A stretch of DNA of 32,000 bases from Nitrosococcus oceani ATCC 19707 (GTDB lineage: Bacteria > Pseudomonadota > Gammaproteobacteria > Nitrosococcales > Nitrosococcaceae). Where the stretch lies: NCBI RefSeq assembly GCF_000012805.1, contig NC_007484.1:1470001-1502000 (forward strand). Direction: 5' to 3'. Shown piece after piece: positions 5,891 through 20,806 of the stretch (positions within the stretch are counted from its first letter, which is position 1; every line of letters begins with the position of its first letter). The notes under the pieces are model-generated. The model was not told the origin of the DNA, did not search any database, and saw nothing but the letters and a program-made list of their open reading frames with translations. The translations under genes were made by a program, and so were the position numbers.

Positions 5891-6625
5891 CTATTGGCCA
5901 TAGCGCCCATCATCCGTTATCAATTCCCACACATCGGGACGTTCCAGTTTAACCTGGGATAACATCGGGGCGAGTTCCGCGTAGCAGGGTTGGCGCCAGC
6001 CATGGTACTCAATAAGAGGCCCTGAATTTATAAAATGGATACCTACTCGCTTCAGCATACGCAACAGCGCTGGCTCCATTACCGCGCTCCAATGGGTAAC
6101 GCCATATTTGTAACTATTACCCACTAAGGCTTGGATCAGCCCCAAGCATAGATGGGGTATCTTTCTTCCCTGTTCCCTTGCTTGCGCTTCATGCCACTCG
6201 GTGCTAACTCCACTTGGAGAGCTGGCTTCACCAAGGCGCCGTCTAAAATTTTTAGACACGGCAAACCGGGATACCTCCGCTAACGTAGAACGCGGCAGTA
6301 AATTAAGGTCGTTCAGCAGAGGTTCCCGGCACAGCTGGTTGATAGGGAGCGCTAACGCTGGATTATCCTCGGAGGGGAGAACCAATCTCACCGTGCCCGC
6401 AGTAAGGCTTGTCTGCCGGTGTACTAACAAACTGTGGATGGAACAGTCATCAAATGGGTCCTTTTCTAACCCATCAGGGTGATGAGATGAGTCTTCAAAT
6501 GGATTTTCCACGCAATATACTTGAAAACGGAGCCGATAGACTTCGGCGAGTTGCTCTGGCGCTTCATCGACTTGCGGATAAATTTCAAAGTATTTTTTGT
6601 AAATCTCGGCGAGTGATTCAGTCAT
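5891..6625 (-). CDS. LuxI-fold/GNAT-related N-acyltransferase of the 'PEP-CTERM/exosortase system-associated acyltransferase' (N-acyl amino acid synthase-like) type
   Basis: 244 aa ORF. The blocks YRLRFQVYCVE, GTVRLVL, AEVSRFAVSKNFRRR and GVTHWSAVMEPALLRMLKRVGIHF match what I remember of TIGR03694-type proteins. This is recognition from memory, not a search. Confidence 0.7.
   Translation of the reverse strand: MTESLAEIYKKYFEIYPQVDEAPEQLAEVYRLRFQVYCVENPFEDSSHHPDGLEKDPFDDCSIHSLLVHRQTSLTAGTVRLVLPSEDNPALALPINQLCREPLLNDLNLLPRSTLAEVSRFAVSKNFRRRLGEASSPSGVSTEWHEAQAREQGRKIPHLCLGLIQALVGNSYKYGVTHWSAVMEPALLRMLKRVGIHFINSGPLIEYHGWRQPCYAELAPMLSQVKLERPDVWELITDDGRYGQ
6026..6400. repeat. copy 1 of a 375 bp dispersed direct repeat (internal part of the acyltransferase gene)
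   Basis: It aligns base for base with 12643..13017. My manual alignment found 11 substitutions and no indels. Confidence 0.9.
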
Positions 6626-6801: not shown

Positions 6802-6841
6802 ACGACGCTTTATCGTCAATAGATTGACGATAAAGCGTCGT
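6802..6841. repeat. perfect 40 bp palindrome (19 bp arms, 2 nt centre)
   Basis: acgacgctttatcgtcaat-ag-attgacgataaagcgtcgt. It lies about 180 bp upstream of the acyltransferase start in an AT-rich gap. No flanking T-run on either strand, so it is unlikely to be an intrinsic terminator. Confidence 0.9.
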
Positions 6842-7136: not shown

Positions 7137-7235
7137 ATGATTGCTTGGTATTGGTCGATTATCATCCTCTGGATGGGGTTATTGATAGGTATCTGCATAA
7201 TATCCCTCTTTATCCACGGAGAAGATGACAAATGA
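7137..7235 (+). CDS. candidate 32 aa single-helix membrane mini-protein (speculative)
   Basis: It translates as MIAWYWSIIILWMGLLIGICIISLFIHGEDDK. Its stop overlaps (ATGA) the start of a 9-codon ORF (7232..7261). That ORF's stop in turn overlaps (TAATG) a 33 aa ORF (7261..7362). The RBS is weak (aagaga). Confidence 0.25.
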   Translation: MIAWYWSIIILWMGLLIGICIISLFIHGEDDK

Positions 7236-7544
7236 AAACTATTTCTGTACGGTCTTCATAATGTTTGGAGAGATTATTACCACGCCTACCAAACATCAGG
7301 GCCGATTCGCGAAAGGGAGAAGCAGCATTTTACTTACTGTTATTTACTGGCTAAGCAAATAAACTCCACAACCGAATGTCATTTCCCTTCTACTCACCTA
7401 CGGACTCGGTAGGGGGCAAAAGCATAAAGCGGTAGAAGGCACGGAGAGGCGAACGCAAAGCGTTTCTTTCAGCGGGTGCTAATTAGATTCCGTTTGAGAG
7501 CAGAATAGGATTATTTAAAATTGCAATGTAATCAGGAGGAAATA

Positions 7545-8993
7545 ATGAGTGGAACCTCTGAACGCGTATCCACTGGGCTTGAGGCGTTGGACCATATCCT
7601 CTCCGGAGGTCTTATTAAACAGTCGGCTTACTTGGTGCGCGGGGGGCCAGGCCAAGGAAAAACAACCCTGGGTCTGCACTTTCTTGCTGCTGCGGATGGC
7701 CAGAGCTCCCCGCTCTTTATTGGCTTTCAAGAACCAGAAGAACAACTCCGAGTCAATGCCGAATCGGTAGGTATTGACATATCCAATTTTCGTTTCCTGA
7801 GTTTGACCCCTGAGGAGCATTTTTTTACCGAACAACAAAGCTATGATGTTTTCGCTGCCGCTGACGTAGAGCAAGAACCCCTTGCAAAATCCGTCATGGA
7901 AACGGTAGAACGAGCTATTCCTACCCATGTTTTTGTTGATTCCATGACCCAGCTACGTTTTCTTTCGGCAGATGTTTATCAGTACCGTAAACAAGTCTTA
8001 TCCTTTTTACGCTATTTCCGAGAGCGAGGCGCCACCATCTTATTTACCTCGGAGCTTAGTGCGGAGCTCCCCGATGAGGATCTTCAATTTATTGCTGATG
8101 GGGTCATCACCTTGGATACCGCGCCTAATGGTTCTTTTTTACAAGTATCTAAGTTTCGCGGCTCCAACTTTTTACGGGGCCCGCATCAGATGCGGGTGGG
8201 CAATCGGGGTTTGGAAATCTTCCCCCGTCCCTTACCCCCCAAAGCAAATCTTGGCGAGGACGAGCGTTGGCGTTGGAGTACCGGGATTGAAAAGTTGGAT
8301 AAGATTCTGGGTGGCGGCCTCGAAGCTGGAACAATTTCGCTCATTACTGGCCCCTCCGGCACTGGTAAATCTACCCTCGCCTCACTTTTCGTGGCCCAGG
8401 CCGCGGCCCAAGGACGGAAAGCGGCAATCTATCTCTTTGAGGAGGAAATAGATGCCCTCCTTCATCGCGCTTCTTCCTTAAGTATTGATCTAAAGAACCC
8501 CCTGAGAGAGGGACAAATAAAATTGGAGCAGGTTGAGCCTTTGCGCTATCTCACGGATGAATTCGCAACGTTAGTTAGCCAAGAGGTGGAAGAAGAAGGC
8601 GTGGAGCTCATCGTATTGGACAGTATCGCCGGATTTGAGCTCACCCTCGGTGGAGACGAGGAAGCTAAAAGGGCACTTCATGCCTTGGCTAAAAGTTTAT
8701 CGCGGCGGGGGGCATCGGTATTGCTAGTTAATGAGATCGAAGCACTGACGGGACAGTTTAAAATTTCCGGGAAAGGCATCAGCTACCTCTCAGATAACGT
8801 GATATTTTTGCGTTTTATGGAAATTGAAGGCGCACTTAAAAAATCATTAGGCGTGTTGAAAAAAAGACTAAGCGCGTTTGATACGCGGATGTATAGTTAT
8901 GAGATTGGCCCCACCGCTTTGTTGATTGGCGATCCCGTGGGCAAACAAGGCTGGCAGGGTGTGCTTGACGGTCAACAGGCTGTCCACCCATAA
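7545..8993 (+). CDS. kaiC: KaiC-like double-domain RecA-superfamily ATPase
   Basis: There are two tandem KaiC-type domains. Each begins with the G(L/I)E.LD.IL.GGL motif and carries Walker A (GGPGQGKT; GPSGTGKS) and Walker B (HVFVDSM; LIVLDSI). AGGAGG lies 5 nt upstream of the ATG at 7545. The ORF-track start at 7521 is probably too early. Confidence 0.85.
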   Translation: MSGTSERVSTGLEALDHILSGGLIKQSAYLVRGGPGQGKTTLGLHFLAAADGQSSPLFIGFQEPEEQLRVNAESVGIDISNFRFLSLTPEEHFFTEQQSYDVFAAADVEQEPLAKSVMETVERAIPTHVFVDSMTQLRFLSADVYQYRKQVLSFLRYFRERGATILFTSELSAELPDEDLQFIADGVITLDTAPNGSFLQVSKFRGSNFLRGPHQMRVGNRGLEIFPRPLPPKANLGEDERWRWSTGIEKLDKILGGGLEAGTISLITGPSGTGKSTLASLFVAQAAAQGRKAAIYLFEEEIDALLHRASSLSIDLKNPLREGQIKLEQVEPLRYLTDEFATLVSQEVEEEGVELIVLDSIAGFELTLGGDEEAKRALHALAKSLSRRGASVLLVNEIEALTGQFKISGKGISYLSDNVIFLRFMEIEGALKKSLGVLKKRLSAFDTRMYSYEIGPTALLIGDPVGKQGWQGVLDGQQAVHP

Positions 8994-9002
8994 ACGAAAG
9001 AA

Positions 9003-9374
9003 GTGCTAGTGCCTGAAATTCTCCTAGTGATACGTAAGCGGGGTAATATTCGGGTACTCCGCCAAGCCTTGGAAGCGCATAAGCTCACTTGTGTGGAAGT
9101 AAGTAGTAAAGAAGCGCTTGAAGGGCTACTTGAGAAACCTTTATGCCCTGATTTGGCTCTGGTTGATGTCTCCGGATTCGGGGAATCCATAAAGTCTATG
9201 TGCGAGCTGTTACAACAGAAGGAAATACCTTTCATTGTGCTATCTGCTAAAGGGGAACTGAGCCTAAGCAATCAAGCTTTATACCATGGCGCCGCTAGTA
9301 TTCTGGAAAAACCCATCATCAAACCCTTACTATTAAAACTTATTAGGAGGATGGTCCATGCAGGTGCATGCTAG
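9003..9374 (+). CDS. stand-alone CheY-like receiver-fold protein with a degenerate acidic pocket (pseudo-receiver)
   Basis: 123 aa, GTG start 9 nt after the kaiC-like stop. The REC topology is readable: beta3 LALVDVSG with Asp, beta4 FIVLSA, beta5 LEKP with Lys. However beta1 reads ILLVIRKRGN instead of the usual hhhhDD. Confidence 0.7.
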   Translation: MLVPEILLVIRKRGNIRVLRQALEAHKLTCVEVSSKEALEGLLEKPLCPDLALVDVSGFGESIKSMCELLQQKEIPFIVLSAKGELSLSNQALYHGAASILEKPIIKPLLLKLIRRMVHAGAC

Positions 9375-9401
9375 CCGTCAGTTTATGTTGGCTACTACTT
9401 A

Positions 9402-11183
9402 GTGAGCGATTACCAGGGATTCGCGGTAATGAAAGAACAAAGTAAAGTCACCTGGATAGAGTGGCGCGGTTCACACCCGTCCCAGATGGAAAGCGGGAAA
9501 GCACCAGATAAAAACGATCAGTATGGGAAAAATCGGGTAATGTTGCTAGTGAACAGCAGCGGCAACAGAGCCCTCCTGGCTAATCATTTACGTCCCTATT
9601 GTCAGCTTGTAGAACCCAACGATCCTTCGCTAAAGCCAGAATCATTTGACCTCGCTATTGTAGATATGGAAGGTTTGCGGCAATGGCAAAAGCAATTGCT
9701 AGACGCCAAGCAACGCGAAGAACCCGTATTCCTTCCGGTCGTATTAATCCTTTCCCGCAGCGAATTAAAACGCCGTTTTAAGACTTTTTGGGATCTTATT
9801 GATGAGTTTATTCTCTCTCCCATAGAACGGCGAGAGTTTACAGAGCGCGTATCCATGCTCCTTAGAACCCGTCAGCTAGCACTGACTCAGCGCTCACACC
9901 TTGCATATCTGGTCAATCATGATCGCCTGACCGGTCTACCCAATCAAACTCTGTTCATGGAACACCTGATAGATTCGGTGCGCGATGCCTCAATTTTAAA
10001 CAAGCAAGTCTATGTCACTGTGGTCCATATTCCGCTGGCGCGCACCATGAGATCCCTAGGTCATTACGGCTTGGAGCGCGTTGTGGCTAACTGCTCAACA
10101 CGTCTTAACGCGGTACTGCGGGATGAAGTATTGCTGGCCCGGCTTACTACAGAAGAGTGGGGACTAATTCACAGACCCGGTGAGACGTTAAGCCGGGTTC
10201 TCGAGATTTGCAGGCGCATTCAGCTTCTAGCAGACGAGCCTATTCCTGTAAGGGGGGAGCATATCCGTTTAGCCCCACGCATTGGCGTTGGAATCTATCC
10301 CGATGACAGCTCTGATGCGAATGGAACGCTCGAATGCGCCATGGCGGCCCTCTCGGAGGATAAAGGACCTGCCCCGGTTTTTTATTCGCGTCGGATTCAA
10401 CACGAGGCGCTACGATTTATTCGCACTGAATCAAAGCTATACGAAGCCCTGGAAAAAGAGGAATTTGAACTATGGTTCCAACCCCAGGTAAGTTTTGAAA
10501 CCGAAAAGCCCGTTGGGGTAGAAGCACTGGTGCGGTGGCGCCTTCCCAACGGAGAATTGGCGCCACCGGGTGAATTCTTACCGGTCGCCGCCTCAACCGG
10601 ACAAATTCTAAGAATTGACCGATGGGTGCTGGAAAAAGCCTGCGCCACAATGAATGCATGGCGTGACGACAATATAGGCTTACAACGCGTTTCAGTGAAT
10701 GTAACGGTGGAAGATATTGATGCTCCGGATTTCGTGGAATTTATCAAAAGGGCGCTCGATCAATATCAACTACCGCCTCCCTCTTTGGAGTTAGAATTGA
10801 CCGAAACAACGTTTTTTAAAAGTAGTCCTGCAAATCTTGAAAAACTCAATTTACTTCGCTCTGAAGGTATTAGTGTCGCCGTGGATGATTTTGGCAAGGG
10901 TTACTCATCCTTGAATTATCTTCATAAACTGCCCATTACCACGTTAAAGATAGATAAAGAATTTATTGAAAACGCCATTAATAATCCAACCAGTGCTGCA
11001 ATTGTGGAAACCATTGTATGGCTAGCCAAAAAATTTAAATTGGAGACCGTCGCTGAGGGTATCGAAACTAAAGCACAGGTAGAATTTCTTCGCTCGCTTG
11101 GGGTAACCACCGCCCAGGGTTTTTTTTACAGTCAACCTATTCCAGAGGCAGAATTACGAGAATGGATAAAATATTACCGCTAA
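9402..11183 (+). CDS. pseudo-receiver / degenerate GGDEF / EAL-domain protein (predicted c-di-GMP phosphodiesterase)
   Basis: - N-terminal REC-like domain: MLLVNSSGN, LAIVDMEG, VLILSRS, ILSPI.
- GGDEF-fold region: DRLTGLPNQ is present, but the active site reads RLTTEEWG.
- EAL domain with all signature blocks: EALVRW, VSVNV, ELELTE, DDFGKGYSSL, LKIDK, EGIE, AQGF.
- The start is uncertain; the ATG at 9429 is an alternative. Confidence 0.85.
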   Translation: MSDYQGFAVMKEQSKVTWIEWRGSHPSQMESGKAPDKNDQYGKNRVMLLVNSSGNRALLANHLRPYCQLVEPNDPSLKPESFDLAIVDMEGLRQWQKQLLDAKQREEPVFLPVVLILSRSELKRRFKTFWDLIDEFILSPIERREFTERVSMLLRTRQLALTQRSHLAYLVNHDRLTGLPNQTLFMEHLIDSVRDASILNKQVYVTVVHIPLARTMRSLGHYGLERVVANCSTRLNAVLRDEVLLARLTTEEWGLIHRPGETLSRVLEICRRIQLLADEPIPVRGEHIRLAPRIGVGIYPDDSSDANGTLECAMAALSEDKGPAPVFYSRRIQHEALRFIRTESKLYEALEKEEFELWFQPQVSFETEKPVGVEALVRWRLPNGELAPPGEFLPVAASTGQILRIDRWVLEKACATMNAWRDDNIGLQRVSVNVTVEDIDAPDFVEFIKRALDQYQLPPPSLELELTETTFFKSSPANLEKLNLLRSEGISVAVDDFGKGYSSLNYLHKLPITTLKIDKEFIENAINNPTSAAIVETIVWLAKKFKLETVAEGIETKAQVEFLRSLGVTTAQGFFYSQPIPEAELREWIKYYR

Positions 11184-11293: not shown

Positions 11294-11605
11294 ATGACTT
11301 ATTCATTAGATATGAGGAATGCTATTATATCGTTTGTTAAAAACGGTGGTAGCAAAACCGAAGCCGCACGCTTATTCAATGTTTCCCGCAATACATTATA
11401 TAGATGGCTTGGTCTTGATGATTTAGCGCCCAAAAAACATGGTCCTCGCAGCCGGAAGATCGACAAGGGCAAGCTGAAGGAGCATGTTGAAGATTACCCG
11501 GACATGTTTGTGCATGAGCGTGCGGAGATATTTGGTGTTCACGCCAGTTCGATTAGCCGTGCGTTGAAGAGATTGCGGATCGTAAAAAAAAGAGCGCGGG
11601 TATAA
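11294..11605 (+). CDS. IS630 transposase, N-terminal HTH part (orfA)
   Basis: 103 aa with a helix-turn-helix (SKTEAARLFNVSRNTLYRWL). It ends just after an A8 run at 11584..11591. Confidence 0.8.
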   Translation: MTYSLDMRNAIISFVKNGGSKTEAARLFNVSRNTLYRWLGLDDLAPKKHGPRSRKIDKGKLKEHVEDYPDMFVHERAEIFGVHASSISRALKRLRIVKKRARV

Positions 11606-11618
11606 AGAGCGATGCGAT

Positions 11619-12143
11619 ATGAAAAGGCTCGCTTTCCTTGAGAAGCTGGAAAGCGAGCATCGGCGATTTGGCTTTAAAAACCTTATCTACATGGATGAAA
11701 CCGGTTTTGACGCCCATTGTTATCGCGATGCCGGATGGGTTAAGAAGGGGCAGAAAATCCTTGGCCTTGTGACCGGCAAGCGAGAACAGCGCACTCATTT
11801 GATGATGGCGCAAAGGCATGCAGCGAAAGGAGGCAAGAGGCAGTGGCTTGCCCCCATGCTTTTTAAAGGCTCATGCAATGCCAAAATCGTTGAAACATGG
11901 ATTGAACATTTTCTGATGAAAGAGCTTCATGAACCCACCATCGTGGTCATGGACAATGCCTCCTTTCATAACCATGAACGTATCCAGAAAATACTGGCAA
12001 AAGATTATCATTATTTGATCCCGCTGCCACCCTACTCGCCAGACCTCAACCCCATAGAACAAACCTTTGGCGCCATGAAAAAAAGAAGACAAAGTATGCC
12101 GGATGGAACAACAATCGGCGATCTTATATCGTCCTATTCTTAA
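11619..12143 (+). CDS. IS630 transposase, DDE catalytic part (orfB)
   Basis: The DDE motifs are IYMDETG, VVMDNASFH and PPYSPDLNPIEQ. This frame is already open from 11586 (KKERGYKERCD...). It is offset +1 from orfA within the A8 run. Confidence 0.8.
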   Translation: MKRLAFLEKLESEHRRFGFKNLIYMDETGFDAHCYRDAGWVKKGQKILGLVTGKREQRTHLMMAQRHAAKGGKRQWLAPMLFKGSCNAKIVETWIEHFLMKELHEPTIVVMDNASFHNHERIQKILAKDYHYLIPLPPYSPDLNPIEQTFGAMKKRRQSMPDGTTIGDLISSYS

Positions 12144-12642: not shown

Positions 12643-13017
12643 ATTTATAAAATGGATACCTACCCGCTTTAGCATACGCAACAGCGCTGGCTCCATTACC
12701 GCGCTCCAATGAGTAACGCCATATTTGTAACTATTACCCACTAAGGCTTGGATCAGCCCCAAGCATAGATGGGGTATCTTTCTTCCCTGTTCCCTTGCTT
12801 GCGCTTCATGCCACTCGGCGCTAATACCGCTTGGAGAGCTGGCTTCACCAAGGCGCCGTCTAAAATTTTTAGACACGGCAAACCGGGATACCTCCGCTAA
12901 CGTAGAACGCGGCAGCAAATTAAGGTCGTTCAGCAGAAGCTCCCGGCACAGCTGGTTGATAGGGAGCGTTAACGCTGGATTATCCTCGGAGGGGAGAACC
13001 AATCTCACCGTGCCCGC
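12643..13017 (-). pseudogene. copy 2 of the 375 bp repeat: an internal fragment (about codons 76-200) of the acyltransferase gene, lacking both ends
   Basis: Near-identical to 6026..6400. The translated segment RLVLPSEDNPALTLPINQL...GVTHWSAVMEPALLRMLKRVGIHFIN matches the intact gene. It then runs into nitroreductase DNA in the wrong frame; this is the ORF-track entry 12535..13008. Confidence 0.85.
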
Positions 13018-13060: not shown

Positions 13061-13429
13061 CGCTTTAGCGGGTGCTATGATGAAAGACGCTTTGGGCTCA
13101 AAACGCTCCCGCGGCGGCTCATGATCCTGCCCGGTGCCAAGCTGCAATGGCAATTTAAAGCCTTTTATCTCTATGGCGCGGTGGAGCCTCTGAGTGGGGA
13201 ACGTTTCTTTTTGGAATGCTCTCATCACTATAGTCCTGAGCTCAATCCGATCGAACGCCTTTGGCAGCATATGAAAGAGCAGCTCAGTTGGGTGCTCTTT
13301 AGCACCCTGGACTCCCTTCAACAGAGCGTCACTGACATCCTCCATGAGCTTACTCCACGAATAATTCGTTCTTTAATCGCTTACCCCTTCATCCTCTCCG
13401 CCTTTAAATATTTAGAAAAATGGTATTAG
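13061..13429 (+). pseudogene. degraded IS630-family transposase remnant with an internal deletion
   Basis: The translation reads ...ERRFGLKTLPRRLMILPGAKLQWQFKAFYLYGAVEPLSGERFFLE and then jumps directly to HHYSPELNPIERLWQHMKEQL. The block between the first and last DDE regions is missing, and so is the N-terminal HTH part. Confidence 0.7.
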
Positions 13430-14747: not shown

Positions 14748-15200
14748 ATGTATCGTTTCCACCGCTCAAAAGGATGGCTTAGCCTGTGGCTTATCGTCGC
14801 GGTGCTGGGGCATTTCGGCTTAAGTCACACTGAAGCCTCTGCTTGGGTGCTTTGCTTTGGGGTAGACAGCCATGTGGCGGTGGAGCCTGCCGATCATAAC
14901 CATTTTGTTCCGCCTACCTCGAATGGTATTTCTCTTGCTAAAGGGGATGTTTATACTGAGGGGCTAACAACAGGGGAAAGTCCGTGCCTGGATATTCCCG
15001 TGGTGAGCGAAGACCATGGCGCCCACAAGCCCTTGAGCGGATTTCAACAGCCTTCCCTCGATGAAGGTCTGGCGGCGGTGGTGCTAATTATCGCCGTTAT
15101 TCTCTTCCCTCACACGATAACTAAACCAGCTTTTCTTCCCGATCCTTCTATTGTTGACTCTAGGCTGGTTGCCCTTCGTAGCGTTGTCCTTCTGAATTAA
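14748..15200 (+). CDS. hypothetical membrane-anchored protein with Cys/His-containing segments, upstream of czcB
   Basis: 150 aa with an N-terminal helix (WLSLWLIVAVLGHFGL) and a second helix (LAAVVLIIAVILF). Candidate metal-ligand stretches are CFGVDSHVAVEPADHNH and SEDHGAH. I recognise no family; its position is the main support. Confidence 0.45.
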   Translation: MYRFHRSKGWLSLWLIVAVLGHFGLSHTEASAWVLCFGVDSHVAVEPADHNHFVPPTSNGISLAKGDVYTEGLTTGESPCLDIPVVSEDHGAHKPLSGFQQPSLDEGLAAVVLIIAVILFPHTITKPAFLPDPSIVDSRLVALRSVVLLN

Positions 15201-15367
15201 ATCCTTAATTGCTGTGCTCCCGCGCCGTGTTTCCCTTAAGGGGGGATAACGGTGCCGTACTGCTTGCCTGGAGAACCTGCTTGCAGAACAGGATTCTCTC
15301 GCTGGAGTGCTCTTCCCCAGGCAATAAGGATTTTTCTGCTGCTCAACTTTGGATTAAAACTTGGACA

Positions 15368-16876
15368 ATGAAAAGTAAAAGTGTATTCGCTGGGGTTAGC
15401 GTGATTTTGGTAGGGCTTGTTCTGGCCTGGCTTATCCTCCATCAGGAAGAAGAGTCACCTAATGGGCCTGCTGAAGGGGAAGCCCATGCCGGCCATGAAG
15501 AAGACGGAAAGGCTGAGGAACGCCACCGGCGGCACTTGATCCAAAATGGATTCGAGCTTGAAGTTGGGCTTGAAGAGGGGCAGGAAAGTTCCCCCCATTT
15601 TCGGGTTTTTGCCTATGAACAGGAACAGCTGATTAATCCAAAGTCCACGCAACTTGCTTTCCAACTCCAGCGGCCGGGAGAGGCCCCAGAGTTTATAGGT
15701 TTTCAGGCTGACGGAGAATCTCTACGTAGTACCCAGCCCATTGCTGAACCCCATATATTTAGGGTTCGAGTGGCAGCCGAGTATCAAGGCAAAACCTACC
15801 AGTGGAAATACTGGCAGGTGGAAGGGGGAATCGAATTACAACCGGGCGCTATTGCAGAGGCGGGGATTGGGATTAAGGTGGCTGGTCCCGCGCCCATTAA
15901 GACTACCGTGGCCTTCCCCGGCGAAATTCAATACAACCCCCGCCAAGTGGCCCATGTGGTGCCTCGGGTGGAGGGAGTCGTCACCGAGGTGCGCAAGTTC
16001 CTCGGCGATAAGGTGAAAGAAGGCGAAATTCTAGCGGTGCTGAAAAGCCGGGAGCTGGCGGATCTGAAAAGTCAATATTTGGTGACTCTTAAACGTTTGG
16101 ATTTGGCTCAAGAAATTTTTGAGCGGGAAGAACGCTTGTGGAAGGAAAAAGTGTCCGCGGAACAGGACTACCTGGTAGCCAAAAAGGAGCTGGCTGAAGC
16201 CCAGGTGCTGATGGAGGCGGCGGCACAAAAACTCCGCGCTTTGGACTTTTCCAAGGTTGATTTGCAGGCTATGGATTCGGAAACCGGAGCGCTTTTTAGC
16301 CGTTATGAGCTGGAAACTCCTTTTAGTGGGGAGGTGGTGGAAAAGCATTTGGCTTTGGGGGAGGCCGTGACTGCCAACGCAAAAATCTATACGATTGCCG
16401 ATCTGTCCACGGTTTGGGGCGAGATTACTGTCTACAGCAAAGATTTAAATCAGGTTCGGCGAGGCCAGGAAGTGACGGTGAAAGCGACGGATATGGCGCT
16501 TTCCACAGAGGGCAAGGTGTTTTATATGGGACCGCTGGTGGGGCAGCAGACCCGTTCGGCCAAGGCCTATGTGGAAATTCCCAACCCCCAAGGACGCTGG
16601 CGTCCGGGATTATTCATCACAGTGGAGGTCGTGCAGGAGAAAATCAAGGTTCCGGTAGCAGTGACCGCCGAGGCGGTTCAAACTTATCAGAATCGCCCGG
16701 TAGTATTCGTTCAGCACGGAAACCTTTTTGAGCCCCGGCCAGTGGTGCTGGGAAGGGGATCGGGCCAGTGGGTAGAGGTGCGCCAGGGGCTCTCGGCAGG
16801 CGAGCATTACGTTGCTAGCAACAGCTTCGTGCTTAAATCCGAGCTCGGTAAATCCACTGCCACCCATCAGCATTAA
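15368..16876 (+). CDS. czcB: RND efflux periplasmic adaptor (membrane fusion protein), CzcB-like
   Basis: Likely start at MKSKSVFAGVSVILVGLVLAWL, which is internal to ORF 15209..16876. It has a His/Glu-rich N-terminal stretch (AEGEAHAGHEEDGKAEERHRRH). HlyD-type lipoyl, coiled-coil and beta-barrel regions follow (GDKVKEGEILAVLKS..., RLWKEKVSAEQDY...). It lies 15 nt upstream of czcA. Confidence 0.85.
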   Translation: MKSKSVFAGVSVILVGLVLAWLILHQEEESPNGPAEGEAHAGHEEDGKAEERHRRHLIQNGFELEVGLEEGQESSPHFRVFAYEQEQLINPKSTQLAFQLQRPGEAPEFIGFQADGESLRSTQPIAEPHIFRVRVAAEYQGKTYQWKYWQVEGGIELQPGAIAEAGIGIKVAGPAPIKTTVAFPGEIQYNPRQVAHVVPRVEGVVTEVRKFLGDKVKEGEILAVLKSRELADLKSQYLVTLKRLDLAQEIFEREERLWKEKVSAEQDYLVAKKELAEAQVLMEAAAQKLRALDFSKVDLQAMDSETGALFSRYELETPFSGEVVEKHLALGEAVTANAKIYTIADLSTVWGEITVYSKDLNQVRRGQEVTVKATDMALSTEGKVFYMGPLVGQQTRSAKAYVEIPNPQGRWRPGLFITVEVVQEKIKVPVAVTAEAVQTYQNRPVVFVQHGNLFEPRPVVLGRGSGQWVEVRQGLSAGEHYVASNSFVLKSELGKSTATHQH

Positions 16877-16891
16877 TTCAGGAAGGAAGCT

Positions 16892-19800
16892 ATGTTTGAA
16901 CGGTTATTAAGATCCTCTATCGAGCACCGGGGATTGGTCATGCTGGCCATGGTGGGGCTGATCCTGCTGGGAATTTATAACTTCCAGCGTTTGTCCATCG
17001 ACGCGGTGCCTGATATCACCAACATCCAGGTCCAGATCAATACCGCCGCGCCCGGCTACTCGCCCCTCGAAACCGAGCAACTCATCACCTTCCCGGTGGA
17101 GCTGGCCATGTTGGGCGCTCCCCGGCTCCAGGAGACCCGTTCGATTTCCAAATATGGGCTCTCCCAGGTGACCGTGATCTTCGAGGAAGGTACGGATATC
17201 TATTTTGCCCGCCAGCAAATCAACGAGCGCATCCAGCAGGCCAAGGGCCAGCTTCCCTCGGGCATTGAGCCCCGCATGGGGCCTATCGCGACGGGACTGG
17301 GGGAAATCGTTCTCTGGACCATGGAGGCGGAACCCGGGGCGCGCCAGCCAGATGGTAGTCCCGTGACCAGTACATATCTGCGCACCCTGCTGGATTGGGT
17401 GATTCGTCCCCAGCTTCTTACCCTCCCTGGGGTGACGGAAGTCAACAGCATCGGCGGCTATAAGAAACAATATCATGTGACCCCGAGTCCGGAAAAGCTT
17501 ATCGCCTATGGGCTTAGCTTCCGGGACGTTATGACGGCCCTGGCGGAGAACAATCAAATGAAGGGGGCCGGCTATATCGAGCACCACGGGGAGCAATTCC
17601 TGATCCGGATTCCAGGGCGGGTTTATACGCTGGAAGAGATCCGTAATATCCGGGTAGGCACCTATCAGGGCATCCCCATCCTTATTAAGGACCTAGCGGA
17701 AGTTTTGCTGGGTAAGGAATTACGCACGGGTGTGGCCACGAGAGACGGCCAGGAAGCGGTCATCGGCACTGCTTTTATGCTCATGGGAGAAAATAGCCGC
17801 GCTGTGGCTCAGGCGGTGGGAGAAAAGCTCACTGAAGCCAATCGCTCCTTGCCGGAAGGAGTGGAAGCCGAGATTTTCTATGACCGGACGAACTTGGTGG
17901 ACAAGGCGGTCGTCACGGTACGGAACAATCTGGTGGAAGGGGCGGCTCTGGTGATCGCCGTATTGTTTTTTTTGCTGGGCAATATCCGGGCGGCGCTGAT
18001 CACCGCCATGGTGATCCCTCTGTCCATGTTGTTTGCCATCACCGGTATGGTATCGGAGGGGGTAAGCGCCAACTTGATGAGCCTGGGGGCCATTGATTTT
18101 GGCATCATCGTGGATGGCGCGGTGGTCATTGTGGAGAATAGCGTGCGCCATTTGGCGGAGGAGCAACAGCGGCGGGGACGGACGCTAACTCTTTCTGAAC
18201 GCCTCAAAGTGGTGTATGAATCTTCCGAGGAAGCCCGTCGAGCGATCCTGTTTGGGCAGATGATTATCATGGTGGTTTACATTCCCATTTTCGCCCTCTC
18301 CGGGGTAGAAGGCAAAATGTTCCACCCCATGGCTCAGACCGTCATTATGGCGCTGTTTGGGGCCATGATTCTTTCCATTACCTTCGTCCCCGCCGCTGTG
18401 GCTTTGTTCATCGGCAAGCGGGTTTCGGAAAAGGAAAATTTCTTCATGAGATGGGGTAGCAAGGCCTATCTGCCCACCCTTGACTTTGCTTTGCATCACC
18501 GCACCTTAATGGTGACCTCTGCCGTGGTCATCGTGGCCTTGAGTGGATTGCTGGCGACCCGCCTGGGCACGGAGTTTGTGCCTAGCCTGGATGAGGGGGA
18601 TATTGCGCTCCAGGTTTTGCGCACCCCGGGCACGGGCCTCCAGCAATCCATTGCCATGCAAGAGAAGGTAGAGCAAGCGTTCAACACGTTTCCGGAAGTA
18701 GAAACGGTCGCGGCCCGGATTGGGACGGCGGAGGTGGCCACCGATGTGATGGGGCCCAACATCAGCGATATCTATATCATGCTCAAGCCTCGGGAAGAAT
18801 GGCCCGACCCGGACCGGCCCAAGGAGGATCTCATCGAGGCCATGTCCCAGCGGATCGCCCGGCTTCCCGGCGGCAAGTACGAATTTAGCCAGCCCATTGA
18901 GCTGCGTTTTAATGAGTTGCTTTCCGGGGTTAAAGCCGATGTAGCGGTCAAGGTCTTTGGCGATAATAGGTCGGTTTTGTTAGAGACGGCGGAACAGATC
19001 GCGGTTGTCCTCAGAACCGTGCCGGGGGCCTCGGATGTACGGGTAGAGCAAGTCACGGGGTTGCCGGTGCTAACCGTGGAGATAAAACGGCCGGAGCTGG
19101 CCCGCTACGGGCTCAATGTGGCCGATATTCAACGAACCGTCGAGGCCGCCATGGGCGGGGTGGCGGTAGGTAAAATCTATCAAGGGGATCGCCGCTTCGA
19201 TTTGGTGGTGCGCTTACCGGAGCGATACCGGACGGATGTGGATGCCTTAAGGCGCTTGCCCATCCTTATTCCGCCAAGTCTTGGGGCTAGGGCTGGGGCT
19301 GCCCAGATTCCAGCTCCGGCTTATATTCCCCTGAGCACCATCGCCGAGGTGCAAATAAGTCCAGGACCTAACCGTATTAGCCGGGAGAACAGTAAGCGCC
19401 GAGTGACCACCACCTTCAATGTCCGGGGCCGGGATATGGGCTCCGTGGTGGCGGAAGCACAAGCCAAAATTCAGGCACGGGTGGAGATCCCGCCAGGCTA
19501 TTGGATCGACTGGGGCGGCCAATTTGAACTGATGACCGAGGCGGCTGAGCGCCTGAGCCTTGTGGTCCCCGTTGCTCTGTTGCTCATCTTTATTTTTCTC
19601 TATAGCACCTTTGGCAATCTGAAAGATGGGTTATTGGTCTTTACCGGTGTACCCTTTGCCCTCACGGGGGGCGTACTGAGCCTGTGGTTGCGGGAAATTC
19701 CCCTGTCCATTTCCGCAGGAGTGGGATTTATTGCCCTCTCCGGAGTGGCGGTGCTCAATGGGTTAGTGATGATCACGTTCATTCGCATGTTGCGCGATCA

Positions 19801-20035
19801 GGGCTTGTCCCTAGAAGAGGCCATCCGCCAGGGGGCCCTTACTCGCTTACGCCCGGTGCTCATGACCGCCCTGGTTGCTTCCCTGGGTTTTGTGCCCATG
19901 GCCCTGGCCACCAGCACCGGGGCGGAGGTGCAGCGGCCCTTGGCTACGGTGGTCATCGGGGGGATCATCTCTTCGACCCTATTGACCCTTCTGGTATTAC
20001 CCGTGCTTTACCGGATAATCCATTACAGGGAGTAA
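16892..20035 (+). CDS. czcA: heavy-metal-efflux RND inner-membrane pump, CzcA type
   Basis: 1047 aa with 12-TM RND architecture. TM4 reads AIDFGIIVDGAVVIVEN, the DFG..DGA..VEN signature I associate with divalent-cation (Zn/Co/Cd) HME-RND pumps rather than the CusA type. Confidence 0.9.
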   Translation: MFERLLRSSIEHRGLVMLAMVGLILLGIYNFQRLSIDAVPDITNIQVQINTAAPGYSPLETEQLITFPVELAMLGAPRLQETRSISKYGLSQVTVIFEEGTDIYFARQQINERIQQAKGQLPSGIEPRMGPIATGLGEIVLWTMEAEPGARQPDGSPVTSTYLRTLLDWVIRPQLLTLPGVTEVNSIGGYKKQYHVTPSPEKLIAYGLSFRDVMTALAENNQMKGAGYIEHHGEQFLIRIPGRVYTLEEIRNIRVGTYQGIPILIKDLAEVLLGKELRTGVATRDGQEAVIGTAFMLMGENSRAVAQAVGEKLTEANRSLPEGVEAEIFYDRTNLVDKAVVTVRNNLVEGAALVIAVLFFLLGNIRAALITAMVIPLSMLFAITGMVSEGVSANLMSLGAIDFGIIVDGAVVIVENSVRHLAEEQQRRGRTLTLSERLKVVYESSEEARRAILFGQMIIMVVYIPIFALSGVEGKMFHPMAQTVIMALFGAMILSITFVPAAVALFIGKRVSEKENFFMRWGSKAYLPTLDFALHHRTLMVTSAVVIVALSGLLATRLGTEFVPSLDEGDIALQVLRTPGTGLQQSIAMQEKVEQAFNTFPEVETVAARIGTAEVATDVMGPNISDIYIMLKPREEWPDPDRPKEDLIEAMSQRIARLPGGKYEFSQPIELRFNELLSGVKADVAVKVFGDNRSVLLETAEQIAVVLRTVPGASDVRVEQVTGLPVLTVEIKRPELARYGLNVADIQRTVEAAMGGVAVGKIYQGDRRFDLVVRLPERYRTDVDALRRLPILIPPSLGARAGAAQIPAPAYIPLSTIAEVQISPGPNRISRENSKRRVTTTFNVRGRDMGSVVAEAQAKIQARVEIPPGYWIDWGGQFELMTEAAERLSLVVPVALLLIFIFLYSTFGNLKDGLLVFTGVPFALTGGVLSLWLREIPLSISAGVGFIALSGVAVLNGLVMITFIRMLRDQGLSLEEAIRQGALTRLRPVLMTALVASLGFVPMALATSTGAEVQRPLATVVIGGIISSTLLTLLVLPVLYRIIHYRE

Positions 20036-20209
20036 AGCGGGTCCATGGCGAATTATTGTGAGAATGAGTAGTTACGGGAAGGAAGTTTGTCTCCGCCGGT
20101 ATTTGTTTTTTCGATAAAAAACGATGTGCTACACTGTTACTATGGGCACTGCTTTCACCCTCTAACATCTACAGCCAAAAAGTATAATGGTTTCTATGGA
20201 GGAATAAAA

Positions 20210-20791
20210 ATGAGCGAAATTCGAAAAGAAATCCTGGCGGCTAACCAGAGCTATGCGGCCAACTTTGGCGATAAAGCAGACTTGCCCATGCCCCCTGGCC
20301 GCCATTTTGCTATCTTGACCTGTATGGATGCCCGTTCAGATCCAGCGCAATATGCGGGTTTGGCAGAAGGCGATGCCCATGTCATCCGTAATGCGGGGGG
20401 ACGGGCCAGCGATGATGCTATCCGTTCCCTAGTTATTTCTTATAAGCTTCTTGGTACCCGGGAATGGTTTGTGATCCATCACACTGACTGCGGTATGGAA
20501 ACATTTACCAATGAAGTTATGGACAAATTATTGTCTAGCAGCCTTAAGTCCGCCATCCTGGATGGTAGTGGCTGGCATGATAACGGGCCGGGACCCGGAA
20601 GTTCGGAAGGCAAATACATCAATTGGTTGACCATTAAGGATCAGACCCAAAGCGTGTTGGAAGATGTAAAGCGTATTCGCCATCATCCTTTAGTCCCTGG
20701 GGATCTTCCTATTTACGGTTATGTCTATGACGTCAAAACAGGTAAACTTATAGAGGTGCCCGAAGCGACGGCGGCAGGAAAAGTAGTTTAA
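20210..20791 (+). CDS. beta-class carbonic anhydrase (clade D, Rv1284/COS-hydrolase-like)
   Basis: GGAGG precedes the ATG at 20210 ([15 protein letters not shown]...). The zinc-ligand blocks CMDAR and HHTDCGM are present, along with VIRNAGGR. The ORF-track start at 20087 is probably too early. Confidence 0.85.
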
Positions 20792-20806
20792 GCTAAGCTT
20801 GTTGGG

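What the first reader, a model, noticed from the sequence alone, without database searches (positions are those of the whole stretch)
7545..11183. KaiC-like double ATPase operon whose only recognisable output is a c-di-GMP phosphodiesterase
Three same-strand genes are separated by only 9 and 27 nt:
- a two-domain KaiC-family ATPase (7545..8993);
- a 123 aa stand-alone receiver-fold protein (9003..9374);
- a receiver-fold / degenerate-GGDEF / intact-EAL protein (9402..11183).

The window contains no kaiA, no kaiB and no SasA/CikA-like histidine kinase near this operon. Both receiver folds lack the phospho-acceptor chemistry, so ordinary His-Asp phosphotransfer is unlikely to link the parts.

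The architecture suggests that the nucleotide or autophosphorylation state of a KaiC-like hexamer is read by docking of pseudo-receiver domains and converted into c-di-GMP hydrolysis. The stand-alone pseudo-receiver could act as competitor, adaptor or buffer. This parallels how the pseudo-receiver domains of cyanobacterial KaiA and CikA plug into the Kai oscillator. I do not know of a KaiC-to-EAL module having been characterised.
Basis: partly seen in the sequence, partly recalled or inferred. Interest (0 to 1): 0.7.

Follow-up and report, generated by a model that had tools for sequence, protein, structure and literature searches.

The report
KaiC-like ATPase cassette with c-di-GMP phosphodiesterase
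A Nitrosococcus oceani three-gene cassette (non-clock KaiC-like ATPase, small pseudo-receiver, pseudo-receiver fused to a c-di-GMP phosphodiesterase) is the gammaproteobacterial version of a widespread but mechanistically unstudied signalling module that usually ends in a histidine kinase.

Summary
The three genes exist as described and are very probably an operon. Gene 1 is a two-domain KaiC-family ATPase, not RadA/RecA and not a clock KaiC orthologue: its phosphosite pair is Ser-Tyr, it lacks the KaiA-binding tail, and the window has no kaiA or kaiB. Gene 2 is a receiver that keeps the acceptor Asp and the Lys, but a basic residue replaces the Mg-binding Asp. Gene 3 has an N-terminal receiver-fold domain that Pfam misses (I call it REC*; it keeps only the Asp), a dead GGDEF and an intact EAL.

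The cassette recurs. Of 73 related loci with enough downstream sequence, 69 have KaiC-like followed by REC*-output, and 46 also carry the small receiver. The output is a histidine kinase in most phyla. It is GGDEF*-EAL only in one gammaproteobacterial clade, and elsewhere sometimes active GGDEF, HD-GYP or PP2C.

The constant REC* domain is therefore the likely coupler to KaiC-like.

Prior work already covers part of this. A 2011 comparison listed NOC_1328, most likely this gene, and kaiC-REC/HK/GGDEF-EAL contexts, and Pseudomonas KaiC-HK-RR binding has been shown.

Verdict: a real new variant of a known kind, of moderate interest.

The parts
7494..7521 (+). Promoter-like site (TTGAGA-16-TAAAAT) 24 nt upstream of the kaiC-like start
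   Evidence: 10 of 12 matches. Such sites are not enriched over shuffles, so this is only a candidate.
7545..8993 (+). KaiC-like double-domain ATPase, 482 aa, 'SY type'
   Evidence: Pfam PF06745 in two stretches, 9.8e-67. PDB KaiC 5.5e-43 over residues 6-465. Below the clock-KaiC equivalog cut-offs: 206.7 against 408 bits. The exact protein is present in N. oceani assemblies.
7560..8225 (+). CI-like half (aa 6-227): Walker A GGPGQGKT, Q62-E63 in place of KaiC E77-E78, Walker B D132
   Evidence: Alignment to KaiC. In 81 family members K39, T40 and D132 are invariant, the E78 position is E in 74 of 81, and the E77 position is G/E/Q.
8271..8939 (+). CII-like half (aa 243-465): Walker A GPSGTGKS, catalytic E299-E300, Walker B D359
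   Evidence: K275, E300 and D359 are invariant in 81 of 81; E299 is E in 77 of 81.
8781..8786 (+). Codons S413-Y414, aligned with the KaiC phosphosites S431-T432
   Evidence: alignment. The pair is SY in 77 of 81 family members.
9003..9374 (+). REC1: stand-alone pseudo-receiver, 123 aa. It keeps D55, S/T and K103. The acidic pair is replaced by I10-R11.
   Evidence: PF00072 at 32 bits; 34 of 35 orthologues hit PF00072. In the family, D57 is kept in 51/51, K109 in 51/51, and the D13 position is R/K/H in 44/51.
9165..9167 (+). Codon of REC1 Asp55, the acceptor position (CheY D57)
9402..11183 (+). REC*-GGDEF*-EAL protein: 593 aa from GTG 9402, or 584 aa from ATG 9429 as annotated publicly
9531..9881 (+). 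REC*: divergent receiver-fold input domain (aa 44-160). Only the acceptor-position Asp (D88) is kept; DD, T and K are lost; the loop after the Asp is 2 residues shorter.
   Evidence: No Pfham-level call: no Pfam hit. AF2 pLDDT 89.5 with a (beta-alpha)5 pattern. Foldseek top hits are the PhoP, PhoB and PleD receivers. Residue counts are. hhalign against REC1 gives probability 97.2%.
9915..10364 (+). Degenerate GGDEF domain (motif TTEEW, no RxxD I-site)
   Evidence: PF00990 at 3.1e-13. The motif is degenerate in 17 of 17 clade members.
10434..11138 (+). EAL phosphodiesterase domain with all catalytic motifs: EALxR, N, ELTE, DDFGxGYSS, KID, EGxE, QG
   Evidence: PF00563 at 1.4e-72. The motifs are intact in 17 of 17 clade members.

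Best explanation
This is a self-contained KaiC-like signalling cassette.

**Proposed mechanism**
- A KaiC-family double-ring ATPase that is not a circadian KaiC acts as the sensing or timing element. Both ATPase halves look intact, Ser413-Tyr414 sit at the phosphosite positions, there is no KaiA-binding tail, and no KaiB is present.
- Its nucleotide or phosphorylation state is read through protein-protein contact by the N-terminal receiver-fold domain (REC*) of the downstream effector.
- In the gammaproteobacterial clade that includes Nitrosococcus, the effector is a dead-GGDEF/active-EAL c-di-GMP phosphodiesterase. The output is then a change in c-di-GMP hydrolysis.
- The small REC1 protein is a paralogous pseudo-receiver. 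It acts with REC* as an adaptor, competitor or partner, and is accessory rather than essential.

**Shown here**
- Gene order and domain identities.
- Residue conservation in all three proteins.
- Conservation of the cassette across phyla.
- Modular exchange of the output behind a constant REC*.
- REC1-REC* fusion proteins.

**Inferred, not shown**
- Hexamer formation.
- Which KaiC-like state is read.
- Direct docking of the receiver-like domains.
- The direction of phosphodiesterase control.
For: **Operon-like anatomy**
- The genes are tightly spaced on one strand, with a strong ribosome-binding site before the first.

**KaiC-like protein**
- It is KaiC-family with catalytic residues intact. 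The Walker A/B motifs of both halves are invariant, the CII Glu pair is E299 in 77 and E300 in 81 of 81 sequences, and the phosphosite pair is SY in 77 of 81.

**Cassette conservation**
- 69 of 73 loci with at least 1.5 kb downstream have REC*-X directly after KaiC-like. 46 of them also have REC1.
- Flanking genes differ between N. oceani, N. wardiae and Kineobactrum, so only the three genes travel together.
- Two proteins found through the REC* profile alone both lie downstream of KaiC-like plus REC.

**REC* as a constant input module**
- It sits at the extreme N-terminus of proteins with varied outputs. HATPase_c is present in 46 of 56 locus proteins and 65 of 85 representatives. Other outputs are active GGEEF, HD-GYP, SpoIIE and GerE.
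- The EAL-output loci form a single KaiC-like clade in a neighbour-joining tree.

**Links between the receiver-like domains**
- REC1-REC*-X fusions occur in L031, P0248 and P0267.
- REC1 is absent in 23 of 69 cassettes, including 2 of the EAL type, so it is accessory.

**Against a nearby kinase partner**
- In the EAL clade, histidine kinases lie nearby in only 3 of 20 loci.

**Precedents in the literature**
- P. putida KaiC binds the kinase encoded next to it through that kinase's first 138 residues, and also binds the single-domain regulator.
- De Luca 2011 proposed the N-terminal domain of kaiC-linked kinases as a KaiC-docking module.
- KaiC-REC fusions exist in Methanosarcinaceae.
Against: - No interaction or enzymatic data exist for this family, so docking is inferred from genomic context only.
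- The acceptor-position Asp is almost invariant in both receiver-like families (REC1 51/51, REC* 68/71). REC1 also keeps the Lys in 51/51 and Ser/Thr in 42/51. That degree of conservation would also fit a phosphorylation-based mechanism.
- In most cassettes the output is itself a histidine kinase that could phosphorylate REC1.
- LbKaiC2 of Leptolyngbya boryana matches this family's reported features, but I did not verify its membership by sequence. It showed no autophosphorylation in vitro, so the 'phosphorylation state' part of the model may be wrong.
- One clade member, L008, has no downstream partners.
Confidence: 0.55

Rival explanations
1. **Conventional or near-conventional phosphorelay.** REC1 and/or REC* are phosphorylated on their conserved Asp by a histidine kinase encoded elsewhere in the genome, or by acetyl phosphate. 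KaiC-like only modulates that flow, for example as a scaffold or phosphatase-like partner.
For: - The Asp is invariant in REC1 (51/51) and nearly so in REC* (68/71). REC1 keeps the Lys (51/51) and mostly Ser/Thr.
- Most cassettes outside the gamma clade carry a histidine kinase as the third gene, a natural phosphodonor for REC1.
- Terrettaz et al. suggest the linked single-domain regulators act as phosphate sinks.
Against: - The Mg-binding acidic pair is gone. The D13 position is R/K/H in 44 of 51 REC1 sequences.
- In the gamma clade REC* has lost D12, T87 (0/15) and K109 (0/15).
- From my own knowledge, not tested here: CheY D13K/R substitutions block phosphorylation and give a phosphorylation-independent active form.
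- No kinase lies in or near the cassette in 17 of 20 EAL-type loci.
- By the definition in PMC12632262, both domains are pseudo-receivers.
Confidence: 0.2
2. **KaiC-like as a trans-acting protein kinase.** KaiC-like phosphorylates REC1 and/or the phosphodiesterase on Ser/Thr/Tyr, or hands its own phosphoryl group to them, rather than merely being bound by them.
For: - The CII catalytic Glu pair and Ser413 are conserved.
- Public databases name relatives 'non-specific serine/threonine protein kinase'.
- Pseudomonas KaiC homologues are phosphorylated in vivo.
Against: - To my knowledge, KaiC-family proteins characterised so far autophosphorylate only.
- LbKaiC2, which has the same feature set, showed no autophosphorylation.
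- I did not identify a conserved candidate acceptor Ser/Thr on REC* beyond the active-site positions.
Confidence: 0.1
3. **Hourglass or diel timer.** The KaiC-like protein runs a KaiA/KaiB-independent phosphorylation or ATPase timer, and the phosphodiesterase gives a time-of-day c-di-GMP output. This is compatible with the best explanation but adds a timing claim.
For: - Phosphorylatable residues sit at both KaiC phosphosite positions (S413, Y414) and at the T426 position.
- De Luca 2011 raised the hourglass idea for kaiB-less SY/TY-type KaiC homologues.
Against: - There is no kaiB in the window.
- In Pseudomonas, KaiC phosphorylation follows culture age rather than circadian cues.
- The family occurs in many non-phototrophs.
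- No data here bear on rhythmicity.
Confidence: 0.1
4. **Not a signalling unit.** The three genes are adjacent by chance or through mobile-element traffic, or the first gene is a RadA/RecA-type repair or defence ATPase.
For: - IS630 and IS1595 fragments flank the cassette in two Nitrosococcus species.
- There are weak P-loop-level hits to RecA/DnaB/RadA models and to a PADLOC 'mad8' model.
Against: - The cassette order is conserved across at least six phyla.
- All repair and defence hits cover only the Walker A region or score far below their cut-offs.
Confidence: 0.02

Closest known systems
Pseudomonas KaiC-like / histidine kinase / single-domain response regulator modules (Terrettaz et al., bioRxiv 10.1101/2022.01.26.477890; Environ Microbiol 2023)
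   Same: - A KaiB-less KaiC homologue sits in one predicted operon with two-component-type proteins.
- Group I has a TY/SY phosphosite pair.
- KaiC binds the adjacent kinase through that kinase's N-terminal 138 residues, and also binds the regulator.
   Different: - The output there is a histidine kinase, and the docking domain is described as PAS.
- Here the output is a GGDEF*-EAL phosphodiesterase with a receiver-fold N-terminus.
- I could not test orthology with the Pseudomonas groups because their sequences are not held.
kaiC gene contexts catalogued by De Luca et al. 2011 (PMC3164672), including NOC_1328 and the Ramlibacter Rta_04330/Rta_04340 KaiC-'Nt_HK' pair
   Same: - They describe kaiC followed by a receiver gene or by HK/GGDEF-EAL genes.
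- They list NOC_1328, most likely this N. oceani gene, as having an SY profile.
- They propose that a receiver-like N-terminal domain of the linked kinase docks on KaiC.
   Different: - It is purely a catalogue.
- NOC_1328 was placed in the heterogeneous 'third' group.
- There is no analysis of the REC1/REC* residues, the output modularity or the EAL clade.
SasA-KaiC output of the Synechococcus clock
   Same: An effector enzyme carries an N-terminal docking domain that reads the state of a KaiC hexamer and changes its catalytic output. This works like the model proposed here.
   Different: - SasA docks through a KaiB-like thioredoxin-type fold, not a receiver fold.
- Its output is a histidine kinase acting on RpaA.
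- It needs a true clock KaiC with KaiA and KaiB.
- These points rest on my own knowledge.
KidA (PAS x4-GGDEF-EAL) of S. elongatus (PMC9478674)
   Same: It is the only experimentally shown physical link between the Kai system and a GGDEF-EAL protein.
   Different: [quoted passage not shown]
- Its GGDEF and EAL domains both look active.
- It is not encoded with kaiC.
- No control of c-di-GMP turnover by the clock was shown.
CikA and KaiA pseudo-receiver domains
   Same: They are receiver-fold domains without phosphotransfer chemistry, used as protein-interaction or sensing modules in a KaiC system.
   Different: - To my knowledge (not tested here), CikA's pseudo-receiver binds KaiB on the KaiC CI ring, and KaiA contacts KaiC through its C-terminal domain.
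- CikA's pseudo-receiver lacks the Asp, whereas REC1 and REC* keep it.
LbKaiC2 of Leptolyngbya boryana (PMC11680916)
   Same: - The reported feature set is the same: one CI Glu, the CII Glu pair, a single Ser at the phosphosite, no C-terminal extension, and a histidine kinase gene 3 nt downstream.
- It forms a hexamer or pentamer and has a low, temperature-dependent ATPase.
   Different: - The output is a kinase.
- No autophosphorylation was detected.
- Membership in the same family is inferred from the published features, not from a sequence comparison here.
Archaeal KaiC-like 'signal transduction hubs' and KaiC-REC fusions (Makarova et al. 2017, cited in PMC5847659)
   Same: KaiC-family ATPases are linked or fused to receiver and output domains, and are proposed as signalling hubs.
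   Different: - They are archaeal and often single-domain or inactivated KaiC.
- The partner domains differ.
- The primary paper could not be read here.

Membership tests
KaiC family ATPase (Pfam PF06745, double domain) | Two tandem RecA-like KaiC domains | tested here: met
   PF06745 in two stretches, 9.8e-67. Aligns with PDB KaiC over residues 6-465, 5.5e-43.
KaiC family ATPase (Pfam PF06745, double domain) | Walker A and Walker B motifs in both halves | tested here: met
   K39/T40/D132 and K275/S276/D359. The Lys and Asp positions are invariant in 81 of 81 relatives.
Circadian clock KaiC (NCBIfam PRK09302 / TIGR02655 equivalogs) | Score above the curated equivalog cut-off | tested here: not met
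   206.7 bits against 408, and 121.5 bits against 546.
Circadian clock KaiC (NCBIfam PRK09302 / TIGR02655 equivalogs) | Ser431-Thr432 phosphosite pair | tested here: not met
   Ser413-Tyr414 here. The pair is SY in 77 of 81 family members.
Circadian clock KaiC (NCBIfam PRK09302 / TIGR02655 equivalogs) | Catalytic Glu pairs in CI (E77, E78) and CII (E318, E319) | tested here: inconclusive
   CII has the pair E299-E300. CI has Q62-E63. In the family the first CI position is G/E/Q.
Circadian clock KaiC (NCBIfam PRK09302 / TIGR02655 equivalogs) | C-terminal extension that binds KaiA; kaiA and kaiB partner genes | tested here: not met
   The protein ends 17 residues after the aligned CII core. No kaiA or kaiB lies within +/-10 kb. 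There is no KaiB-like ORF in the window, using a KaiB sequence recalled from memory. The rest of the genome was not searchable.
RadA/Sms or RecA repair proteins | Score above the equivalog cut-off; single RecA domain plus Zn finger and Lon-like domain (RadA) | tested here: not met
   TIGR00416 at 83.2 bits against 403. RecA at 40.5 bits against 325. The hits cover only the P-loop region.
Canonical phosphorylatable receiver (PF00072): REC1 | Five active-site residues: DD, D, T/S, K | tested here: not met
   D55, S and K103 are present. The DD pair is replaced by I10-R11. In the family the D13 position is R/K/H in 44 of 51.
Canonical phosphorylatable receiver (PF00072): REC* of the third protein | Five active-site residues: DD, D, T/S, K | tested here: not met
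   Only D88 is kept. In the gamma clade T87 is 0/15 and K109 is 0/15. The loop after the Asp is 2 residues shorter. There is no PF00072 hit.
Pseudo-receiver as defined in PMC12632262 (lacks at least one of the five residues) | Receiver fold with at least one catalytic residue missing | tested here: met
   REC1 hits PF00072 and lacks DD. REC* has an AF2/Foldseek receiver fold and lacks DD, T and K. The definition is quoted. Neither domain is 'aspartate-less'.
EAL c-di-GMP phosphodiesterase | Catalytic and metal-binding motifs: EALxR, N, ELTE, DDFGxGYSS, KID, EGxE, QG | tested here: met
   All are present in the window protein and in 17 of 17 clade members. PF00563 at 1.4e-72. Enzyme activity is not testable here.
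GGDEF diguanylate cyclase | GG(D/E)EF active-site motif and RxxD I-site | tested here: not met
   The motif is TTEEW and there is no RxxD. It is degenerate in 17 of 17 clade members.
SasA-type KaiC output kinase | N-terminal KaiB-like domain plus HisKA/HATPase_c | tested here: not met
   The N-terminus has a receiver fold. The window protein has no kinase domain.
KaiC-like / REC1 / REC*-output cassette (defined here) | SY-type KaiC-like gene followed on the same strand by a REC1-type gene (optional) and a gene whose product starts with REC* | tested here: met
   The window matches. 69 of 73 related loci share the arrangement. The reciprocal check was positive in 2 of 2 cases.
Known anti-phage defence systems (PADLOC) | Significant full-length match of the components | tested here: not met
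   Only a P-loop-region hit to mad8 (residues 259-314). Nothing for the other two proteins.

The most novel reading that the evidence does not exclude
The receiver active site has been repurposed as a reader, or acceptor, of KaiC-like phosphorylation.

- In REC1 the acceptor Asp and the Lys are invariant, while the Mg-binding Asp is systematically replaced by Arg/Lys/His.
- This pocket could recognise phospho-Ser413 of KaiC-like. Alternatively it could take part in a metal-independent Ser-to-Asp phosphoryl hand-over, in the way KaiC is known to run its kinase reaction backwards.
- That would make the cassette a third kind of phospho-signalling link between a RecA-type autokinase and two-component-type effectors.
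- It would give bacterial pseudo-receivers a defined activation mechanism.
Probability: 0.1. Interest if true: 0.85.

Novelty: new variant of a known kind. Interest (0 to 1): 0.5.

Why it matters
- **Non-clock KaiC signalling.** Non-clock KaiC homologues are common in bacteria, but how they pass information on is largely unknown. This cassette gives a compact, widely conserved test case: a KaiC-like ATPase, one or two pseudo-receiver domains, and an exchangeable output.
- **An easy read-out.** In the Nitrosococcus/Halomonas/Marinobacter/Salinivibrio clade the output is a phosphodiesterase that is simple to assay. Coupling can then be measured directly as c-di-GMP hydrolysis.
- **An unannotated domain.** REC* is missed by Pfam (371 representative clusters at E<=1e-30) and marks the effectors of this system.
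- **Pseudo-receiver regulation.** A recent review says the activation mechanisms of bacterial pseudo-receivers 'remain a mystery'. This cassette offers a concrete candidate regulator for them.
- **Physiology.** For Nitrosococcus it would link an energy-, age- or time-sensing ATPase to c-di-GMP-controlled behaviour.

Tried and rejected
- **REC* profile search, word-indexed database.** It returned only 17 short fragments and was useless for an architecture census. I replaced it with the exhaustive representative search plus Pfam typing.
- **Structure prediction with locus-derived alignment rows.** I redid it with the window sequence plus database fragments.
- **Pfam typing of 117 representatives.** This exceeded the residue limit, so I reduced it to 85.
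- **Makarova et al. 2017.** The paper could not be read. It is cited only through PMC5847659 and PMC11680916.
- **RadA/Sms, RecA, DnaB and defence-system readings of gene 1.** Rejected: the hits are P-loop-only or far below cut-off.
- **kaiB in the window.** None found.
- **Nearby histidine kinase as partner.** It is not a conserved feature of the EAL clade. The window's own kinase at 30.7-32 kb is paired with its own OmpR-type regulator.
- **Promoter and terminator scan.** It gave no enrichment over shuffles.
- **Not attempted.**
  - A complex prediction of KaiC-like with the receiver folds, because no multimer tool was available.
  - A REC1 structure model, judged too weak as side-chain-level evidence to justify the last large database search.

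Full report
**1. Observation**

The window holds three co-directional ORFs at 7545-8993, 9003-9374 and 9402-11183.
- An AGGAGG sits just before ATG 7545.
- The first gap is 9 nt. The second is 27 nt with the GTG start at 9402, or 54 nt with the ATG at 9429 that public annotation uses, giving 584 aa.
- No + strand terminator-like site separates the genes. A promoter-like site lies at 7494-7521, but such sites are not enriched over shuffles.

Pfam gives the following.
- Gene 1: KaiC PF06745 in two stretches, 9.8e-67.
- Gene 2: Response_reg at 32.0 bits against a cut-off of 30.2.
- Gene 3: GGDEF at 3.1e-13 and EAL at 1.4e-72, with nothing on its first ~165 residues.

**2. Source and surroundings**

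The KaiC-like protein occurs with exactly this sequence in several Nitrosococcus oceani assemblies.

Genes within +/-10 kb:
- hopanoid genes, a peroxiredoxin, an Slp-family gene and a fatty-acid hydroxylase;
- a divergently oriented PEP-CTERM/exosortase-associated acyltransferase (TIGR03694, 309 bits);
- an IS630-type transposase and a CzcCBA-type efflux system.

There is no kaiA, kaiB or histidine kinase in that range. The rest of the window holds one classical PepSY/OmpR-type regulator/membrane kinase unit at 29.7-32 kb. A tblastn with a KaiB sequence recalled from memory found nothing.

In N. wardiae and Kineobactrum salinum the same three genes sit among entirely different neighbours. The three genes are therefore the unit.

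**3. Gene 1: KaiC-like ATPase**

Its best solved relatives are KaiC proteins, 5.5e-43 over residues 6-465. Scores against the clock-KaiC equivalogs are far below cut-off (206.7 against 408 bits; 121.5 against 546). RadA, RecA and DnaB models match only around the P-loop.

Residue counts in 81 family members:

| Feature | Result |
|---|---|
| Walker A Lys/Thr and Walker B Asp, both halves | invariant |
| CII catalytic pair E299-E300 | E in 77 and 81 of 81 |
| CI position of KaiC E77 | G/E/Q (Q62 in the window) |
| CI position of KaiC E78 | E in 74 of 81 |
| Pair aligned with KaiC S431-T432 | Ser-Tyr in 77 of 81 (S413-Y414 here) |
| Position of KaiC T426 | Thr or Ser in all |

The protein ends 17 residues after the CII core, so it has no KaiA-binding extension.

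It is therefore a KaiC-family ATPase of a distinct 'SY type', not a clock KaiC orthologue.

**4. Gene 2: REC1**

I aligned 51 orthologues with CheY and Spo0F.
- The acceptor-position Asp (D55) and the Lys (K103) are invariant.
- The Thr position is Ser in 39 and Thr in 3.
- The second Asp of the acidic pair is Arg/Lys/His in 44 of 51, and in all 13 gamma-clade members.
- The first Asp of the pair is hydrophobic in the gamma clade.

34 of 35 orthologues still hit PF00072. By the definition in PMC12632262, which counts any of the five residues missing, this is a pseudo-receiver but not an aspartate-less one. From my own knowledge, CheY D13K/R mutants cannot be phosphorylated and are constitutively active. 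REC1 carries that substitution naturally.

**5. Gene 3**

*REC\*.* Residues ~44-160 form a domain that I call REC*.
- Pfam misses it: the window copy gets no hit, and only 9 of 58 orthologous domains reach PF00072 at E<=0.01. Five match the GlnR pseudo-receiver family instead.
- An AF2 model has pLDDT 89.5 with a (beta-alpha)5 pattern.
- The best PDB matches are all receivers (PhoP, PhoB, PleD, DctD) with probability 1.00 and TM 0.6-0.76.
- In the family the acceptor-position Asp is kept in 68 of 71 sequences and the Lys in only 7 of 71. The loop after the Asp is two residues shorter.
- In the gamma clade the Thr is also lost, 0 of 15.
- REC1 and REC* are related to each other: hhalign probability 97.2%, E 3.8e-11.

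*GGDEF and EAL.* The GGDEF motif is TTEEW with no RxxD site. It is degenerate in all 17 clade members. Every EAL catalytic motif is intact in all 17. The protein is thus predicted to be a phosphodiesterase only.

**6. Comparative genomics**

*From the KaiC-like side.* A scan of one genome per species returned 80 loci encoding relatives of the KaiC-like protein.
- 73 have at least 1.5 kb downstream. In 69 of these a gene whose product begins with REC* follows directly on the same strand.
- 46 of the 69 also have a REC1 gene in between, often with 4-nt overlaps.

*Outputs behind REC\*.*

| Output | Where |
|---|---|
| GGDEF*-EAL | 14 gammaproteobacterial loci (Arhodomonas, Modicisalibacter, Vreelandella, Billgrantia, Salinivibrio, Marinobacter, Saccharospirillum, Pseudohongiellaceae, Ectothiorhodospiraceae and others) |
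| HisKA/HATPase_c kinase, often with PAS/GAF | 46 of the 56 other loci (Chloroflexota, Cyanobacteria, Gemmatimonadota, Armatimonadota, Desulfobacterota and others) |
| GGDEF with intact GGEEF | 3 loci (L028, L069, L076) |
| HD-GYP-type HD_5 | 2 loci |

- The EAL-type loci form one clade in a neighbour-joining tree of the KaiC-like proteins. This points to a single output swap.
- Histidine kinase genes are near the EAL-type cassette in only 3 of 20 loci.

*From the REC\* side.*
- An exhaustive profile search found 371 representative clusters at E<=1e-30 and 1540 at E<=1e-10. The domain is almost always at residues 1-130.
- Of 85 typed representatives, 65 are kinases, 3 are SpoIIE phosphatases, 3 are GGDEF proteins and 1 is a GerE regulator.
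- Two REC* proteins picked without reference to KaiC both lie behind KaiC-like plus REC.

*Fusions and exceptions.*
- Three proteins fuse REC1 to REC*-X: L031, P0248 and P0267.
- REC1 is missing from 23 of 69 cassettes, including two of the EAL type.
- One clade member, L008, is an orphan KaiC-like gene.

**7. What was already known**

- De Luca et al. 2011 compared kaiC contexts. They noted that kaiC is often followed by a receiver gene or lies near HK or GGDEF/EAL genes. They listed NOC_1328, most likely this N. oceani gene (inferred from the locus tag, not checked by sequence), as having an SY profile. They also proposed that a receiver-like N-terminal domain of kaiC-linked kinases docks on KaiC.
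- Terrettaz et al. showed that in Pseudomonas KaiC homologues sit in operons with a kinase and a single-domain regulator. KaiC binds both, and the kinase's first 138 residues suffice for binding. Phosphorylation tracks culture age.
- LbKaiC2 of Leptolyngbya boryana has the same reported feature set as this family. It forms a hexamer or pentamer and has a low, temperature-dependent ATPase, with no detectable autophosphorylation.
- KidA, a PAS-GGDEF-EAL protein, binds fold-switched KaiB.
- KaiC-REC fusions exist in archaea.
- Searches for KaiC with EAL, GGDEF or c-di-GMP found no paper that characterises a KaiC-like-to-phosphodiesterase module.

**8. Mechanism**

*Best-supported reading.* The cassette is a signalling unit in which REC* couples the effector to the KaiC-like ATPase by protein contact. 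REC1 is an accessory partner. In this clade the regulated activity is c-di-GMP hydrolysis.

*Main arguments.*
- The constant REC* in front of exchangeable outputs.
- The REC1-REC* fusions.
- The loss of phosphotransfer residues, strongest in the EAL clade.
- The absence of linked kinases in that clade.
- The Pseudomonas binding data.

*Weak points.*
- There is no direct evidence for this family.
- The strict conservation of the Asp in both domains, and of the Lys in REC1, calls for an explanation. The options are a structural salt bridge, residual phosphorylation, or phosphate recognition.
- It is uncertain whether the state being read is phosphorylation or nucleotide turnover.

*Rivals.*
- Phosphorylation by an unlinked kinase.
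- Trans-phosphorylation by KaiC-like.
- An hourglass timer layered on the same wiring.
- Chance adjacency or a repair/defence role, which I reject.

**9. Novelty**

The gene arrangement is real and conserved, and its mechanism is uncharacterised. The general kind (a KaiB-less KaiC homologue wired to two-component-type proteins) is known, and this arrangement, probably this very gene, was catalogued in 2011.

What this analysis adds:
- the definition of REC* as the constant input domain;
- the peculiar active sites of REC1 and REC*;
- the modular set of outputs;
- the finding that the phosphodiesterase output marks a single gammaproteobacterial clade.

I rate it a new variant of a known kind, with moderate interest.

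Noticed in passing
window 6026-6325 and 12643-12942: A 300-nt direct repeat at 97% identity. It is a partial second copy of the PEP-CTERM/exosortase-associated acyltransferase gene (full copy at 5891-6625, minus strand, TIGR03694 at 309 bits). The two copies bracket the KaiC cassette plus an IS630-type transposase, which suggests an IS-associated rearrangement or insertion. Terrettaz et al. report Pseudomonas group I kaiC genes near an 'EPS sortase', but the adjacency is not conserved in N. wardiae or Kineobactrum.
   Followed up: partly
window 6802-6841: A perfect palindrome with 18-nt arms (ACGACGCTTTATCGTCAA / TTGACGATAAAGCGTCGT) and a TAGA loop. It is unique in the window and lies in the 919-nt intergenic region between the acyltransferase gene and the kaiC-like gene. 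It could be an operator or a hairpin element.
   Followed up: partly
window 11294-12143 and 13121-13429: An IS630-family transposase split into an HTH ORF (11294-11605) and a DDE_3 ORF (11619-12143), probably by a programmed or accidental frameshift. A further DDE_3 fragment lies at 13121-13429.
   Followed up: no
window 29682-32000: A classical unit of PepSY protein, OmpR-type response regulator (30026-30685) and membrane histidine kinase that runs off the window end. It is the only histidine kinase in the window and is about 19 kb from the cassette.
   Followed up: partly
window 7138-7236: A small ORF that would encode a 32-aa hydrophobic peptide (MIAWYWSIIILWMGLLIGICIISLFIHGEDDK), upstream of the kaiC-like gene. 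It is not annotated in the public records I saw and was read by eye only.
   Followed up: no
L031 8425-10539; proteins P0248 and P0267: Natural fusions of REC1 to REC*-output proteins: REC1 at residues ~1-120 and REC* at ~144-272.
   Followed up: yes
L008 7001-8452: An Ectothiorhodospiraceae member of the EAL-type KaiC-like clade has no REC1 or REC*-EAL gene downstream. The next genes are on the other strand and include a ~340-aa ORF that by eye looks like an AraC-type regulator; I did not check it against a profile library.
   Followed up: partly
L087 3191-5859: A cassette in which the KaiC-like gene is split into three fragments and the REC*-GGDEF gene into two. This is either a decaying copy or an assembly with frameshift errors.
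   Followed up: no
L017 4673-6250; L001/L002 1-6176: Three EAL-type loci do have histidine kinase genes close upstream of KaiC-like. In Marinobacter caseinilyticus the kinase is on the same strand and REC1 is absent. In two gammaproteobacterial MAGs there are two large kinases on the opposite strand.
   Followed up: no
window 14748-21976: A CzcCBA-type RND metal-efflux operon followed by a beta-carbonic anhydrase and a ZIP-family/LysM protein. It is unrelated to the finding.
   Followed up: no
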